This document shows, piece after piece, positions 6,856 through 9,528 of a stretch of 15,135 nt of DNA. The DNA is taken from the NCBI GenBank assembly GCA_014729595.1, contig WJJU01000318.1:1-15135 (forward strand), given 5' to 3'. Positions within the stretch are counted from its first letter, which is position 1. Each line of letters begins with the position of its first letter. The position numbers and the translations under genes were made by a program. Under the pieces are notes generated by a model. It had not been told where the DNA came from and did not search any database. It saw nothing but the letters and a program-made list of their open reading frames with translations. The stretch is from Chitinivibrionales bacterium. Its GTDB lineage: Bacteria > Fibrobacterota > Chitinivibrionia > Chitinivibrionales > WJMI01.

Positions 6856-9528
6856 CTACCGCTTTGTCTGTTTAAGCATCTCCTCAATTACCCCGCGGAG
6901 CCCTTCGACCGTACGTTGCTCTTCCGAGCCCCCCGCCGCGGAATCGGCGAGCCGCATAAGCTCTTCCGGTCGACGTGGAGGGCCGAACAGTACGCGTGTT
7001 GAAGCGGGGCCGGGGATTGCGCGGCCAATCGGCATCGCACGTCGAGTACCTTCGATCAAAACCGGTACTACGGGTAGTGGACGATGCCGGAGAAGCAGGC
7101 CGATACCCGGGCGAAACGGAAGAAGGTCCGGTCCGCGCGCGCGCCTCCCCTCCGGATACCAAACAAGGTTTTTTTTGCGGTCGATCATCGCCGCGGCAAG
7201 CGCCATGTCCGAACGAGCGGTCAATCCATGGCTAATGGGAACAGCTCCGGCAAGACGGCTTACAAAGCGGTTGAGCGGATTGGCGAAAGCGACTTCCGTC
7301 CCCCCCGCCCAGGCGGTATTGATTATCACCCGATAGGGAATCGACGCGGCTAATACGAAGGAATCGAGATAGCTGACGTGGTTTGGCGCGACAATGTATT
7401 GTCGATCTCGCAAAAGATTTTCCTTCCCCTCAACCTTGAGCCGAAAATATGAATGCATAATCAACCAGTTGAACCAATAGAGCGCTCGAGCCGCAAAACG
7501 CTCCATTACTCCAAGGGGTTCCAACCACTTACGAAGTTCGGGTTCCAGCGCATGTTCCGGGTTGCTGAAAGGATCGGTCTTTGCCCTTGGTCCCTCATGC
7601 GCACGAGCGACGGTGGCGCGCAACAAGTCACGCACGGTAGTAATGCGGCCGATCGTTTCTTCGTCGAGTTCTATGCCCGTTTTATCCCTGATATCCAGGG
7701 TTACCTCGAGCCATCCGAGAGAATCAACCCCCAAATCGAATTGCGGGGAGGTGTCGGGGGTCAGCTTTCGGTCACCAAAGCGCTTCGCCAACGCTTCCCA
7801 AACCGCCGCGGCGGTCGGATCACGAAGCAGCTCACGATCCGGGCCGGCCATATCGCCGATGGGTGTCGGTCCGCGCTCGCTTTCGGGGCGCTTGACGGTT
7901 GTTTGGAGTCGATCGAACCAATCGATCAACAAATGGCGGCGAATTTTCCCTAGGCGTGTTCGAGGAAGCTTTTCGCGCGAGAGAACATAGTTAACAATTC
8001 GTTTGTATGACGGCAGCTTTCCGGCGCAATTATCGAGTGCCTCCCGAACCGCTTCATCGATCGTCATGCCCCGCCGCGTAATTTTTTGCACATCGGGAAC
8101 CACAATCGCGGTCAAGGCGCCGTTTTTAGCGAATACACCGATTTCCTCGATGAATTCATGAGTCTCATATACCGCCTCGACCTCGTCGGGTTGTATGTTT
8201 TCCCCGCTTTCCGTTACTATCATCGACGATATTCTTCCAATCACGTACAATTGCCCGCCGGGGCCAAAGTACCCCAGATCTCCGGTCCGAAACCATCCGT
8301 CGCGAGTAAAGGATCTCGCCGTTTCTTCGGGCAAGTTTCGGTATCCGCCGAAAACCCCCGGCCCTCGGGCCTGTATCTCGCCCCGGCCGGTCATACCCAT
8401 TGGGGCCGCCGTGGTGTCAATGCGGATTTCGACACCCTTTACCGGTTTTCCCACGCTCCCCGGACGTCCCGTGCCCGGTGCCGCAATAGTAAGAAGCGGC
8501 GAGGTTTCGGTCAGCCCGTACCCCACGCCGATACGCCACCCCAGCGCTTCCAAGCGCGTGAAAAGATCCGGATCCAGCGCCGATCCGCCGGAAGCCAGCA
8601 CGCGGAGTTGCGGGCTGATTTCACGACGTATCTTGCTCAGCGCCATGCCGCCCCACCTGACGCCGTGTTCCCGCAAAAACGCCGCCGTACGCAACGCGGC
8701 CGTCGCGCCCGTCGCAACTACCGTTCCACGCGAACGAATTTTCCGCCGTATCCCCTCGTCAAGGGCCCGGTAAAGTCGTGGAACACCGATAATCACGGAT
8801 ACGTTTCCGTCACGTATCGCCCGCAACAATTCCGGCCCGGTCACTTCGTGGGGAATCACAATCGTTAAACCCAGGAACAAGGGTACAAAAAGGCCCACCA
8901 CCAGCGGGTAAACATGATGAAACGGCAACGGCAAAAGAATGCGGTCGCGTTCCGTAACTATCCGTGTGTCGACGACGGCGTCGAATTGACTGGTTATGTT
9001 CCTATGAGTCAATGGAACACCCTTGGGAGGGCCGGTGGTTCCCGAAGTGTAAAAAAGAACCGCCTCCCGGTCGGGGTGAAGCGGAGGAAGCCCGCCGGTC
9101 GTTGCGGACCTTTGCAGCGTGGCTCCAATGGGTTCCACTCGCGTTTTGAGACGCATTTTTCGGCCGGTTAATCGTTCCCGCATTTCCTCGTCGGCAACAA
9201 CCAACGAAGGAGTTCCATCATGCAGCACATGAAGAAGACTGCGTTCATCGAGCTGCCGATCAATCGGAAGAAGCGTGGCGCCGGTTCGAATGATCGCAAG
9301 GGCGGCAATAACCGCCTCTATCGAAGGCGCCGCCATAAGCGCTACAGGCTTTTCGGGTCCAACGCCGGCACGAATAAGCCCGCGTGCCGTCCCCTCAAGC
9401 CGGTCGGCCAACTCGGCGTAACTATGACGAACAACACCTTCGGCCTCGAACCGTACTAAAGCTTCCTTCGCTTTTCGAGCACGGAAGCTATTCGTCAGAG
9501 CCGCAAGTGTGTCCGGGCGTCCTTTCAT
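6856..9528 (-). CDS. Tri-domain fusion, 890 aa: fatty acyl-AMP/acyl-ACP synthetase (AMP-binding), an acyl-carrier-protein domain and a 1-acylglycerol-3-phosphate / lysophospholipid acyltransferase (PlsC/LPLAT). It is Aas-like but has permuted domain order.
   Basis: An N-terminal adenylate-forming domain carries the motif 'YTSGTTGPPKGV' and 'GYGLTETS...GEIQARGPGVFGGY'. A central carrier domain has the phosphopantetheine site 'LGVDSLGWLEVTL...TVRDLL'. A C-terminal acyltransferase has HX4D 'APNHVSYLDSFVLAA' and 'VWYPEGRRARG' (the FPEGTR block). E. coli Aas has the opposite order and no ACP domain. Confidence 0.9.
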   Translation of the reverse strand: MKGRPDTLAALTNSFRARKAKEALVRFEAEGVVRHSYAELADRLEGTARGLIRAGVGPEKPVALMAAPSIEAVIAALAIIRTGATLLPIDRQLDERSLLHVLHDGTPSLVVADEEMRERLTGRKMRLKTRVEPIGATLQRSATTGGLPPLHPDREAVLFYTSGTTGPPKGVPLTHRNITSQFDAVVDTRIVTERDRILLPLPFHHVYPLVVGLFVPLFLGLTIVIPHEVTGPELLRAIRDGNVSVIIGVPRLYRALDEGIRRKIRSRGTVVATGATAALRTAAFLREHGVRWGGMALSKIRREISPQLRVLASGGSALDPDLFTRLEALGWRIGVGYGLTETSPLLTIAAPGTGRPGSVGKPVKGVEIRIDTTAAPMGMTGRGEIQARGPGVFGGYRNLPEETARSFTRDGWFRTGDLGYFGPGGQLYVIGRISSMIVTESGENIQPDEVEAVYETHEFIEEIGVFAKNGALTAIVVPDVQKITRRGMTIDEAVREALDNCAGKLPSYKRIVNYVLSREKLPRTRLGKIRRHLLIDWFDRLQTTVKRPESERGPTPIGDMAGPDRELLRDPTAAAVWEALAKRFGDRKLTPDTSPQFDLGVDSLGWLEVTLDIRDKTGIELDEETIGRITTVRDLLRATVARAHEGPRAKTDPFSNPEHALEPELRKWLEPLGVMERFAARALYWFNWLIMHSYFRLKVEGKENLLRDRQYIVAPNHVSYLDSFVLAASIPYRVIINTAWAGGTEVAFANPLNRFVSRLAGAVPISHGLTARSDMALAAAMIDRKKNLVWYPEGRRARGPDLLPFRPGIGLLLRHRPLPVVPVLIEGTRRAMPIGRAIPGPASTRVLFGPPRRPEELMRLADSAAGGSEEQRTVEGLRGVIEEMLKQTKR

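What the first reader, a model, noticed from the sequence alone, without database searches (positions are those of the whole stretch)
6856..9528. Permuted Aas-like enzyme with its own ACP domain (AMP-ligase / ACP / LPLAT) in one 890-aa polypeptide, with a downstream lipase-like hydrolase
Known Aas (2-acyl-GPE acyltransferase / acyl-ACP synthetase) has the order acyltransferase then ligase and uses free ACP. Here the order is reversed and a carrier domain with a DSL phosphopantetheinylation site is inserted between the two. This allows fully in-cis activation, tethering and transfer of a fatty acid onto a lysolipid or other acceptor. A 64-aa helical protein and a membrane-anchored alpha/beta hydrolase (GVSAG) follow on the same strand. 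Together they would form a self-contained deacylation-reacylation (lipid remodelling or lipid A / lipoprotein repair) module. Substrate and acceptor are unknown.
Basis: partly seen in the sequence, partly recalled or inferred. Interest (0 to 1): 0.5.

Follow-up and report, generated by a model that had tools for sequence, protein, structure and literature searches.

The report
Fatty-acid ligase–carrier–acyltransferase fusion enzyme
This is an intact 890-residue enzyme that joins a fatty-acid-activating domain, its own acyl carrier domain and a phospholipid-type acyltransferase; it belongs to a large, widespread but biochemically untested family, so the gene is real and worth an assay but not a new kind of system.

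Summary
ORF 6856..9528 (-) is intact and encodes AMP-binding, AMP-binding_C, PP-binding and PlsC-type Acyltransferase domains in that order, all above Pfam thresholds. The catalytic residues are conserved across 120 full-length homologues: P-loop, A10 Lys528 (at least 90%), Ser603 and His717-x4-Asp722 (invariant).

- The protein is not Aas. It falls far below the NCBIfam cut-offs, its domain order is reversed and it has a carrier domain in cis.
- The architecture is not new. It is the FAR-less version of the A-ACP-AT core of Myxococcus ElbD, already noted in the literature. It forms a large family of about 900-aa proteins in many phyla, all named only "AMP-binding protein".
- The proposed module with the downstream hydrolase is not conserved. 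The linkage is seen only in three closely related genomes, along with general synteny. In one of them, opposite-strand genes separate the two.

Across 29 related loci the recurring neighbours are MFS transporters (6 loci, directly adjacent). AcpS, CdsA, a patatin lipase and another alpha/beta hydrolase each turn up occasionally.

The best reading is a self-contained fatty-acid salvage and reacylation enzyme that works like Aas. The acceptor is unknown. I rate it a new member of a known kind, of moderate interest.

The parts
6856..9528 (-). Whole ORF, 890 aa: fatty-acid ligase, acyl carrier domain and PlsC-type acyltransferase in one polypeptide.
   Evidence: ORF listing. Pfam domains. Full-length alignment with 119 homologues. 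AF2 model with mean pLDDT 88.2.
8341..9483 (-). ANL adenylation domain, N-terminal part (residues 16-396). Contains the P-loop YTSGTTGPPKG (160-170) and GYGLTE (336-341).
   Evidence: PF00501 at 1.1e-72. T161, S162, T164, G166, K169 and Y337-E341 are invariant in 120 sequences. Best solved relatives are MatB, oxalate-CoA ligase, MenE and luciferases.
7945..8184 (-). ANL C-terminal subdomain (residues 449-528), ending in the A10 motif TRLGK528.
   Evidence: PF13193 at 29.1 bits, above the gathering score of 24.5. T524 and G527 are invariant and K528 is conserved in at least 90% of sequences.
7594..7818 (-). Acyl carrier (PP-binding) domain, residues 571-645. The predicted phosphopantetheine attachment site is Ser603 (codon 7720-7722).
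   Evidence: PF00550 at 29.9 bits, above the gathering score of 20.8. D602, S603 and W606 are invariant in 120 sequences. The model shows four helices with Ser603 at the start of helix 603-617. Codon checked.
7450..7560 (-). Helical linker, residues 657-693, ending in a long amphipathic helix (674-693) just before the acyltransferase fold.
   Evidence: Secondary structure of the model. Residues 664-838 align to residues 46-209 of Thermotoga PlsC 5KYM. A role in membrane binding is inferred, not shown.
7054..7443 (-). PlsC/LPLAT-type acyltransferase domain, residues 696-825. Contains NH717VSYLD722 (HX4D) and the block III motif YPEGRR.
   Evidence: PF01553 at 2.8e-18. N716, H717, S719, D722, G794 and P822 are invariant. 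5KYM at 5.5e-9. Best NCBIfam hits are the AT domains of Aas-type enzymes.
6501..6695 (-). Conserved 64-aa acidic ORF of unknown function, downstream on the same strand. Its link to the enzyme is doubtful.
   Evidence: RBS GGGAGG before the ATG. 77% identical in L089 and 78% in L099. No Pfam family.
5451..6437 (-). Alpha/beta hydrolase, 328 aa from the ATG with a GGAGA RBS, with a GVSAG elbow. It is a neighbour, not a demonstrated partner.
   Evidence: Abhydrolase_1 at 1.5e-16. Homologues at 64-72% identity in L098 and L099/L100. Absent from the neighbourhoods of all more distant relatives.

Best explanation
The gene encodes a self-contained acyl-activating and acyl-transferring enzyme of the FAR-less 'ElbD-like' A-ACP-AT family.

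Proposed mechanism:
1. The N-terminal ANL domain adenylates a free, probably long-chain, fatty acid with ATP.
2. The acyl group is passed to the phosphopantetheine arm on Ser603 of the enzyme's own carrier domain.
3. The C-terminal PlsC-type domain, with the His717/Asp722 dyad, transfers it to the hydroxyl of a glycerolipid acceptor. The most likely acceptor is a lysophospholipid, or possibly glycerol-3-phosphate.

The enzyme would therefore work like Aas: salvage of free fatty acid into membrane lipid and reacylation of lysolipids. It would not need free AcpP or CoA.

Shown here: the domain order, the conservation of the catalytic residues, the family's breadth and its gene neighbourhoods. 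Inferred: the substrate, the acceptor, the use of the carrier domain and the physiological role.
For: **Domains and motifs**
- All domains score above Pfam thresholds.
- The ligase, carrier-serine and HX4D residues are invariant or nearly so in 120 homologues from many phyla.
- The AF2 model is confident (mean pLDDT 88.2). It shows a four-helix carrier domain with Ser603 at the start of helix II, then a helical linker and a PlsC-like domain.

**Relatives**
- The AT domain is related to Thermotoga PlsC (5KYM, 5.5e-9).
- It scores highest on the AT parts of Aas models.
- For ElbD, which has the same A-ACP-AT core, the ligase and carrier activities were shown in vitro (review PMC9131029).

**Gene neighbourhoods in 29 non-redundant A-(ACP)-AT loci**
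- MFS transporters lie directly adjacent on the same strand in 6 loci (L002, L090, L096, L009, L011, L043). This echoes the aas-lplT operon of E. coli.
- That is 6 of 108 near ORFs against at most 1 of 127 ORFs four to six genes away; one-sided Fisher p = 0.04.
- AcpS phosphopantetheinyl transferase is directly adjacent in L015 and L023. CdsA is next to the enzyme in L015.
- A patatin phospholipase lies 14 bp upstream in L005. A Hydrolase_4 protein lies 17 bp downstream in L011.
Against: - No member of this FAR-less family has been assayed, as far as the searched literature shows.
- The acyltransferase activity of ElbD itself could not be demonstrated.
- In most close relatives the gene stands alone among unrelated genes, so context says little.
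- The adjacent MFS proteins are not LplT orthologues. They show no significant BLAST similarity to it. Two of them are GPH/MelB-type, which could point to a glycoside rather than a lysolipid.
- The MFS enrichment rests on small numbers and crude ORF calls.
- The window is a 15-kb contig, so the rest of the organism's lipid pathway (Aas, FadD, PlsX/Y, AGPS, PPTase) is unknown.
Confidence: 0.55

Rival explanations
1. Ether-lipid enzyme. The protein does the ElbD job, supplying an acyl or alkyl precursor such as acyl-DHAP for alkyl glycerol ether lipids. The missing reductase would be provided in trans.
For: - It has the same A-ACP-AT order as ElbD.
- The ElbD-like protein of a Myxococcales MAG (L026, 1456 aa) is the nearest studied relative. 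Identity is 31% in the ligase and 25% in the acyltransferase. Family-HMM scores for ElbD-like proteins are above those for Aas.
- FAR-less 'ElbD-like homologues' in other phyla are mentioned in the literature.
- Metagenome surveys count such homologues as potential ether-lipid genes.
Against: - The FAR domain (NAD_binding_4 plus Sterile) is absent.
- No elbB, elbC or elbE-like neighbours are present, whereas L026, L013 and L014 have epimerase, Lar_N, DAGK, PlsC or ADH neighbours.
- Pontiella carries ElbD homologues but no ether lipids were detected in it (PMC11868695).
- ElbD-like proteins score only 340-365 bits (A) and 106-125 bits (AT) on the family HMMs, against 680-905 and 241-310 for family members. 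They form a separate clade.
Confidence: 0.12
2. The enzyme, the 64-aa protein and the alpha/beta hydrolase form one dedicated deacylation-reacylation unit for lipid remodelling or for lipid A or lipoprotein repair.
For: - All three genes lie on the same strand with short gaps (160 and 63 bp) and no convincing terminator between them.
- The order enzyme / small ORF / hydrolase recurs in L099, and probably in L089 plus L098, which come from one sample.
- Unrelated lipases sit next to distant relatives: patatin in L005 and Hydrolase_4 in L011.
Against: - No homologue of this hydrolase was found in the 96 loci held at that point, and the small ORF matched only L089 there. That set included about 35 loci with an A-(ACP)-AT gene.
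- Relatives at 46-54% identity have other neighbours.
- In L099 two opposite-strand ORFs, one lipoprotein-like, separate the enzyme gene from the small-ORF/hydrolase pair.
- An unrelated downstream gene (window 4353-4907) is also syntenic in L100. The linkage therefore looks like shared ancestry of close genomes rather than functional coupling.
- The hydrolase family is generic, named pimeloyl-ACP methyl ester esterase or meta-cleavage hydrolase by its sources.
Confidence: 0.12
3. Tailoring enzyme for a specialised lipid. The acyl group goes to a non-phospholipid acceptor such as a glycolipid or glycoside, an aminolipid (ornithine-lipid type) or a secondary metabolite.
For: - Two close relatives are translationally coupled (4-bp overlap) to GPH/MelB-type glycoside symporters, which score above the TIGR00792 cut-off.
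- There are weak hits to lyso-ornithine-lipid acyltransferase OlsA models.
- Surveys list ligase-LPLAT fusions as unusual architectures of unknown role (PMC8460268 and PMC12820801).
Against: - OlsA hits are 17-22 bits against cut-offs of 300.
- No biosynthetic-cluster context was seen in any close relative. Neighbours are unrelated genes of varied function.
- The family is broad and uniform in length, as expected of a core lipid function.
Confidence: 0.13
4. Ordinary acyl-CoA route. The ligase makes acyl-CoA, the acyltransferase uses it, and the carrier domain is vestigial or only structural.
For: - The ligase resembles CoA ligases such as MatB, oxalate-CoA ligase, MenE and FadD13, rather than known FAAL structures.
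- Sources name the family 'long-chain acyl-CoA synthetase'.
Against: - Asp602, Ser603 and Trp606 of the carrier domain are invariant in 120 sequences. That is not expected of a vestige.
- AcpS genes abut distant relatives in L015 and L023.
- The ElbD carrier domain was shown to be active.
Confidence: 0.08

Closest known systems
ElbD of Myxococcus xanthus (ether-lipid biosynthesis; FAR - acyl-CoA synthetase-like ligase - ACP - AGPAT-like acyltransferase)
   Same: - Same order of ligase, carrier domain and PlsC-type acyltransferase in one chain.
- An ElbD-like protein (L026) shows the same Pfam domains. It is 31% identical in the ligase and 25% in the acyltransferase.
- It is the highest-scoring studied relative on the family HMMs.
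- FAR-less homologues in other phyla were already noted.
   Different: - The window protein has no N-terminal fatty-acyl reductase domain.
- It has no elbB, elbC or elbE neighbours.
- It belongs to a separate, tighter clade in which members from different phyla share 43-48% identity.
- No link to ether lipids is shown.
Aas of E. coli (2-acylglycerophosphoethanolamine acyltransferase / acyl-ACP synthetase) with LplT
   Same: - It combines the same two enzyme superfamilies in one protein.
- The AT domain's best curated hits are Aas AT domains.
- In E. coli, aas is followed by an overlapping MFS gene, lplT. Six relatives here have a directly adjacent MFS gene.
   Different: - The domain order is reversed.
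- The carrier domain is in cis instead of free AcpP.
- Identity is only 24-25%.
- Scores are far below the Aas equivalog cut-offs.
- The adjacent MFS proteins are not LplT orthologues.
- The window itself has no MFS neighbour.
PlsC (1-acyl-sn-glycerol-3-phosphate acyltransferase), e.g. Thermotoga maritima 5KYM
   Same: - It has the HX4D and block III motifs.
- The sequence match covers the helices before the catalytic fold as well as the fold itself.
   Different: - PlsC is a stand-alone protein of about 245 aa that uses acyl-ACP or acyl-CoA made elsewhere.
- E. coli PlsC scores only 26 bits on the family AT HMM.
Split Aas of Chlamydia trachomatis (AasC CT776 plus lysophospholipid acyltransferase CT775)
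   Same: Same logic: host or free fatty acid is activated onto ACP and then used by a lysophospholipid acyltransferase (abstract of PMC5693948).
   Different: It consists of separate proteins that use free ACP. It was not compared by sequence here.
FAAL-LPLAT fusions noted in FAAL surveys
   Same: A fatty-acid-activating ANL domain is fused to an LPLAT/AGPAT-like domain. This was reported as an unusual architecture of unknown function (PMC8460268 and PMC12820801).
   Different: The window's ligase does not resemble solved FAALs more than CoA ligases. Whether the surveyed fusions are the same family was not tested.

Membership tests
FAR-less A-ACP-AT family (about 900 aa; 'AMP-binding protein' / 'ElbD-like') | Colinear full-length similarity to family members | tested here: met
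   119 homologues at 43-65% identity with 95-100% coverage and lengths of 881-954 aa. Family HMM scores: A 753, carrier 125, AT 269 bits.
FAR-less A-ACP-AT family (about 900 aa; 'AMP-binding protein' / 'ElbD-like') | Conserved catalytic residues of all three domains | tested here: met
   The P-loop, GYGLTE, Ser603, and His717 with Asp722 are all present and invariant in the family; A10 Lys528 is present and conserved in at least 90%.
Aas (bifunctional acyl-ACP synthetase / 2-acyl-GPE acyltransferase) | Score above the curated equivalog cut-offs (PRK08043, PRK08633, PRK06814) | tested here: not met
   Whole protein: 163 bits against 1221 and 129 against 1349. ACP-AT part: 41 bits against 886 for PRK08043.
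Aas (bifunctional acyl-ACP synthetase / 2-acyl-GPE acyltransferase) | Acyltransferase N-terminal to the ligase, with no carrier domain (uses free AcpP) | tested here: not met
   The order here is ligase, carrier, acyltransferase. E. coli Aas has the AT at residues 1-168 and the ligase after it.
Aas (bifunctional acyl-ACP synthetase / 2-acyl-GPE acyltransferase) | Operon with the lysophospholipid transporter LplT | tested here: not met
   There is no MFS gene beside the enzyme in the window. MFS genes next to relatives show no significant similarity to LplT.
Aas (bifunctional acyl-ACP synthetase / 2-acyl-GPE acyltransferase) | Reacylation of 2-acyl-lyso-PE with free fatty acid and ATP | not testable with these tools
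   This needs an enzyme assay.
ElbD (Myxococcus ether-lipid enzyme) | N-terminal fatty-acyl reductase domain (NAD_binding_4 plus Sterile) | tested here: not met
   Absent from the window protein. Present in the ElbD-like proteins of L026 and, by length, L013 and L014.
ElbD (Myxococcus ether-lipid enzyme) | Ligase - ACP - AGPAT-like acyltransferase core in this order | tested here: met
ElbD (Myxococcus ether-lipid enzyme) | elb cluster context (elbB HAD, elbC, elbE epimerase) | tested here: not met
   The window neighbours are an FHA-SLT protein, a small ORF and an alpha/beta hydrolase. L026 has Lar_N and epimerase neighbours.
PlsC / LPLAT acyltransferase superfamily (PF01553) | HX4D catalytic motif, block III (PEG) motif and a Pfam score above the gathering threshold | tested here: met
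   66.5 bits against 23. NHVSYLD and YPEGRR are present. 5KYM at 5.5e-9.
Acyl carrier / PP-binding domain (PF00550) | Four-helix fold with a conserved Asp-Ser-Leu attachment site | tested here: met
   29.9 bits against 20.8. D602 and S603 are invariant. The model places Ser603 at the start of helix II.
Acyl carrier / PP-binding domain (PF00550) | Actual phosphopantetheinylation and acyl loading | not testable with these tools
   The only indirect support is AcpS genes adjacent to distant relatives.
FAAL (fatty acyl-AMP ligase) | FAAL-specific insertion and CoA-rejecting pocket | not tested
   No FAAL structure is among the best 60 sequence matches or the best 50 fold matches. These are CoA ligases, luciferases and NRPS A domains. 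That is suggestive only.
OlsA / OlsF ornithine-lipid acyltransferases | Score above the curated OlsA cut-offs | tested here: not met
   22 and 17 bits against cut-offs of 300.

The most novel reading that the evidence does not exclude
The FAR-less A-ACP-AT family may be a second, widespread membrane-lipid salvage and repair system that is analogous to LplT/Aas but independent of AcpP and CoA. A coupled MFS transporter would deliver a lysolipid or fatty acid. The enzyme would then reacylate it using its own carrier domain. In organisms with little or no fatty-acid synthesis (CPR bacteria, DPANN archaea), the distant relatives next to AcpS and CdsA could be the main entry point of acyl chains into phospholipid. 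It would also follow that 'ElbD homologue' counts in metagenomes overstate ether-lipid capacity.
Probability: 0.35. Interest if true: 0.6.

Novelty: new member of a known kind. Interest (0 to 1): 0.33.

Why it matters
If the proposed mechanism is right, this family lets a cell put free fatty acids straight into membrane lipid with a single protein, bypassing both acyl-CoA and the housekeeping ACP. That bears on three questions:
- how bacteria repair lysophospholipids;
- how genome-reduced CPR and DPANN organisms build membranes from scavenged lipids;
- whether fatty-acid-synthesis inhibitors can be bypassed.

There is also a practical consequence. Environmental surveys that call 'ElbD homologues' by BLAST (30% identity, 1e-30) would pick up FAR-less proteins like this one and read them as ether-lipid capacity. 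Separating the two clades would sharpen those inferences.

For this particular gene the value is modest. It is one more member of a large, already deposited family, though an untested one.

Tried and rejected
**Searches that gave little**
- Metagenome scan with the single protein: the peptide patterns were too specific. It returned only 4 weak loci, none a family member.
Only about 25 of the 80 loci carried an acyltransferase domain.
- afdb50 fold search: the library was unavailable.
- Foldseek against the PDB: it gave only ANL enzymes and no tri-domain structure.
- Lorenzen et al. 2014, the original ElbD paper, is not held. I relied on a review and two later papers.
- Literature searches for a characterised ligase-ACP-LPLAT fusion found only survey remarks.
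- Rfam and tRNA scans of the window were empty.

**Ideas tested and dropped**
- LplT orthology of the adjacent MFS genes was rejected. BLAST against E. coli LplT was non-significant, and two are GPH/MelB-type.
- I looked for the window's hydrolase, small ORF, FHA-SLT protein and 184-aa ORF near relatives by tblastn. Only the small ORF matched, in L089.
- I tried to join L089 and L098, which come from the same sample, by end overlap. There is no exact overlap.
- A true transmembrane segment in the enzyme was rejected. The most hydrophobic windows lie in the ANL core.
- I considered that the low ORF density on the right of the window meant non-coding DNA. It is a long TssM ORF running off the contig end.

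
Full report
**1. The observation**

The window is a whole 15,135-bp contig of a Chitinivibrionales MAG. It carries one uninterrupted ATG-to-stop ORF of 890 codons at 6856..9528 on the minus strand.

Pfam places four domains on the protein, all above their gathering scores:
- AMP-binding, residues 16-396, 1.1e-72.
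- AMP-binding_C, residues 449-528.
- PP-binding, residues 589-637, 29.9 bits against 20.8.
- Acyltransferase PF01553, residues 696-825, 2.8e-18.

The ORF is neither a chimera nor a broken gene. It aligns end to end with 119 homologues of 881-954 aa at 43-65% identity.

In that 120-sequence alignment the following residues are invariant or nearly so:
- the ANL P-loop (T161, S162, T164, G166, K169);
- GYGLTE (336-341);
- T415 and D417;
- R432;
- A10 G527, with K528 conserved in at least 90%;
- the carrier D602, S603 and W606;
- the acyltransferase N716, H717, S719, D722, G794 and P822.

An AlphaFold2 model built on this alignment is confident, with mean pLDDT 88.2 and pTM 0.64. It shows a four-helix carrier domain with Ser603 at the N-terminus of helix 603-617. 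A helical linker follows, ending in a long helix (674-693), and then the acyltransferase fold.

The two downstream genes also exist. One is a 64-aa acidic ORF at 6501..6695 with a GGGAGG ribosome-binding site. The other is an alpha/beta hydrolase at 5451..6437 with a GVSAG elbow.

**2. What family it is**

No NCBIfam equivalog is reached. The Aas models score 163 and 129 bits against cut-offs of 1221 and 1349. Against E. coli Aas, fetched as L097, the ligase is 25% identical over 326 residues. The acyltransferase is 24% identical over 147 residues, in the opposite order. The protein is therefore homologous to Aas only at superfamily level.

The acyltransferase part alone still scores best on the AT domains of Aas-type models: PRK08633 55.7 bits, PRK08043 41.1 and PRK06814 37.8. 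AGP_acyltrn scores 42.6. Its only solved relative by sequence is Thermotoga PlsC 5KYM at 5.5e-9.

The ligase resembles CoA ligases, luciferases and NRPS adenylation domains. No FAAL structure appears among the best sequence or fold matches.

The same ligase-carrier-acyltransferase order is already known from ElbD of Myxococcus xanthus. ElbD has an additional N-terminal fatty-acyl reductase domain. The review PMC9131029 reports four points:
- the ligase and carrier activities of ElbD were shown in vitro;
- the acyltransferase activity could not be detected;
- ElbD-like homologues occur in other phyla;
- almost all of those homologues lack the reductase domain.

One of my fetched loci (L026, a Myxococcales MAG) carries such an ElbD-like gene of 1456 aa. 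It has NAD_binding_4, Sterile, AMP-binding, PP-binding and Acyltransferase domains. It sits next to a Lar_N protein and an epimerase. The window protein is 31% identical to it in the ligase and 25% in the acyltransferase.

HMMs built from the family alignment give a graded picture:

| Group | Ligase (bits) | Carrier (bits) | Acyltransferase (bits) |
|---|---|---|---|
| Family members | 680-905 | 105-146 | 241-310 |
| Diverged members (L005-L007) | 588-679 | 88-114 | 203-221 |
| Sister groups (L008, L009, L011) | 438-453 | 24-37 | 125-171 |
| ElbD-like proteins | 340-365 | up to 25 | 106-125 |
| E. coli Aas | 63 | none | 64 |
| E. coli PlsC | none | none | 26 |

The protein therefore belongs to a distinct FAR-less A-ACP-AT clade. 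Its nearest studied relative is the ElbD core, and Aas is further away.

The clade is large. The ACP-AT part alone finds 263 cluster representatives (50% identity) at E <= 1e-30. Among the 150 listed, most near-full-length ones carry the match at about residues 550-890 of an 880-930-aa protein; the rest are shorter, probably partial, sequences.

Members come from Chitinivibrionales, Fibrobacterota, Nitrosococcus, Desulfobacteraceae, Sumerlaeota, Rubrobacter, Bryobacteraceae and others. Their sources name them only 'AMP-binding protein' or 'long-chain acyl-CoA synthetase'. Surveys of FAALs have also remarked on ligase-LPLAT fusions as unusual architectures of unknown function. I found no paper that assays a member of this clade.

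**3. The proposed module with the hydrolase**

I looked at the neighbourhoods of twelve family members through contig look-ups. I also examined the loci from a genome scan that carried an acyltransferase domain.

tblastn with the window's hydrolase found no homologue in any of the 96 loci then held. The small ORF was found only in L089, next to the closest relative, whose enzyme is 65% identical.

Searching from the hydrolase side gave two close homologues, P0122 at 69% identity and P0123 at 64%:
- In L099 the order is enzyme gene (C-terminal part 60% identical), then two opposite-strand ORFs (one lipoprotein-like), a 71-aa ORF, the 65-aa small ORF and the hydrolase.
- In the overlapping contig L100 the region continues to a 183-aa ORF. 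That ORF is 65% identical to window ORF 4353-4907.
- L098 comes from the same sample as L089 and may continue it, but the contig ends do not overlap.

So the linkage is kept in three closely related genomes, together with unrelated flanking genes. In one of them it is interrupted by opposite-strand genes. At 46-54% identity the neighbours are entirely different. This is what shared ancestry predicts, not a functional operon.

The small ORF and the hydrolase do stay together, and they may form a unit of their own. The upstream FHA-plus-SLT gene faces a TssM/IcmF gene and most likely belongs to a type VI secretion cluster.

**4. What the neighbourhoods do say**

I took 29 non-redundant loci with an A-(ACP)-AT gene: family members, sister groups, ElbD-like proteins and distant relatives. 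I scanned the two ORFs on each side (108 ORFs) against Pfam. As a control I scanned the ORFs four to six positions away (127 ORFs).

MFS_1 was the most frequent family among near neighbours, with 6 members. All six are directly adjacent on the same strand, several with 4-8 bp overlaps:
- L002 and L090 are GPH/MelB-type, above the TIGR00792 cut-off.
- L096, L009 and L011 belong to a second MFS type.
- L043 is from Saccharibacteria.

The control set held at most one MFS. The one-sided Fisher test gives p = 0.04. A binomial test for direct adjacency against the control frequency gives 7e-6. The numbers are small and the ORF calls are crude.

In E. coli, aas is followed by the overlapping MFS gene lplT, so the arrangement is familiar. 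However, none of these MFS proteins is similar to LplT.

Other recurring neighbours are lipid-related:
- AcpS-type phosphopantetheinyl transferases abut the gene in L015 (Woesearchaeota) and L023 (Uhrbacteria).
- CdsA lies next to the gene in L015.
- A patatin phospholipase lies 14 bp upstream in L005 (Melainabacteria).
- A Hydrolase_4 alpha/beta hydrolase lies 17 bp downstream in L011, which also has the MFS upstream.
- A diacylglycerol-kinase-like gene lies beside ElbD-like L014, and a PlsC-type gene beside ElbD-like L013.
- An LpxL-like acyltransferase lies two genes downstream of the enzyme gene, after the MFS gene, in L002.

The adjacent AcpS genes argue that the carrier domain is used. 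The transporters, lipases and CdsA argue for glycerophospholipid traffic.

**5. Mechanism**

The best-supported reading is that the ligase adenylates a free fatty acid and loads it on the enzyme's own phosphopantetheine arm. The PlsC-type domain then transfers it to a glycerolipid acceptor. That acceptor is most likely a lysophospholipid, or possibly glycerol-3-phosphate. In function this works like Aas, but it is self-contained.

What is shown: domain order, residue conservation, family breadth and neighbourhood trends. What is inferred: substrate chain length, acceptor, use of the carrier rather than CoA, and physiological role.

Rival readings:
- An ElbD-type role in ether-lipid synthesis. 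Against it: no reductase domain, no elb neighbours, a separate clade, and Pontiella with homologues but no ether lipids.
- Acylation of a non-phospholipid acceptor. The GPH-type transporters keep this open.
- An ordinary acyl-CoA route with a vestigial carrier domain. The invariant Ser603 and the adjacent AcpS genes argue against it.

**6. Novelty and verdict**

- The gene is real and its domain architecture is as described.
- The architecture is already known from ElbD and from domain surveys.
- The sequence is already deposited and belongs to a large uniform family.
- The Aas label fails its membership tests.
- The hydrolase module is not conserved.

What remains open, and moderately interesting, is that nobody has shown what the FAR-less family does. 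Environmental studies that call ElbD homologues by BLAST thresholds would count it as ether-lipid capacity. I rate it a new member of a known kind, with interest about 0.33.

Noticed in passing
window 771-3153 (+): A run of four same-strand genes: a ferredoxin (771-1160), a rubrerythrin/EncFtn-like protein (1404-1799), an encapsulin shell protein (Linocin_M18, 2e-69, 1849-2661) and a desulfoferrodoxin (2758-3153). Together they look like an encapsulin nanocompartment with an iron or oxidative-stress cargo.
   Followed up: partly
window 12067-15135 (+) and 9748-11736 (-): A long ORF running off the right end of the contig is TssM/IcmF of a type VI secretion system (IcmF-related_N 3.5e-43, IcmF-related, IcmF_helical). 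The divergent 662-aa protein combines an FHA domain with an SLT lytic transglycosylase domain, which is an unusual fusion. It probably belongs to the same cluster.
   Followed up: partly
window 6501-6695 (-); L089 9695-9883; L099 2795-2992: A 64-aa acidic ORF (16 Asp/Glu, 9 Lys/Arg) with a good RBS and no Pfam family. It is 77-78% identical in two relatives, which is more conserved than the flanking enzyme (60-65%). It stays upstream of the alpha/beta hydrolase in L099.
   Followed up: partly
window 4353-4907 (-); L100 3134-3685: A 184-aa ORF with a Lys/Arg-rich N-terminus and an acidic C-terminus and no Pfam hit. It is 65% identical and syntenic in a related contig.
   Followed up: no
L015 7911-11568; L023 7582-10397; L043 7896-11675: Distant A-ACP-AT relatives in a Woesearchaeota archaeon, an Uhrbacteria bacterium and a Saccharibacteria bacterium. 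They sit directly next to AcpS (L015, L023), CdsA (L015) or an MFS transporter (L043). This suggests fatty-acid salvage into phospholipid in genome-reduced organisms.
   Followed up: partly
L005 6833-11057; L011 6743-11532: In a Melainabacteria MAG a patatin-like phospholipase lies 14 bp upstream of the enzyme gene. In a Methanosarcinales MAG the order is MFS, enzyme, Hydrolase_4 alpha/beta hydrolase, with overlaps or gaps under 20 bp. These are lipase/reacylase pairings built from non-orthologous parts.
   Followed up: partly
L002 5990-7312; L090 10691-12052: Two Chitinivibrionales-like relatives (50-54% identity) have a GPH/MelB-type symporter overlapping the stop of the enzyme gene by 4 bp (TIGR00792 at 265-286 bits against a cut-off of 231). 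From my own knowledge, the eukaryotic lysolipid symporter MFSD2A is related to MelB. I did not test this here.
   Followed up: partly
L066 6756-10232: In Clostridium sp. CAG:768 the acyltransferase (residues 397-576) comes before the ligase (604-1155), after a roughly 400-residue N-terminal extension. This is the Aas-type order, possibly with a fused transporter, so both orders occur among the loci fetched.
   Followed up: no
literature: PMC11868695 methods, set: ElbD homologues in metagenomes are called at blastp e < 1e-30 and identity >= 30%. The FAR-less window protein matches an ElbD-like protein at 31% identity and 8e-64 on the ligase alone. Such screens would therefore count this family as ether-lipid capacity.
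   Followed up: partly
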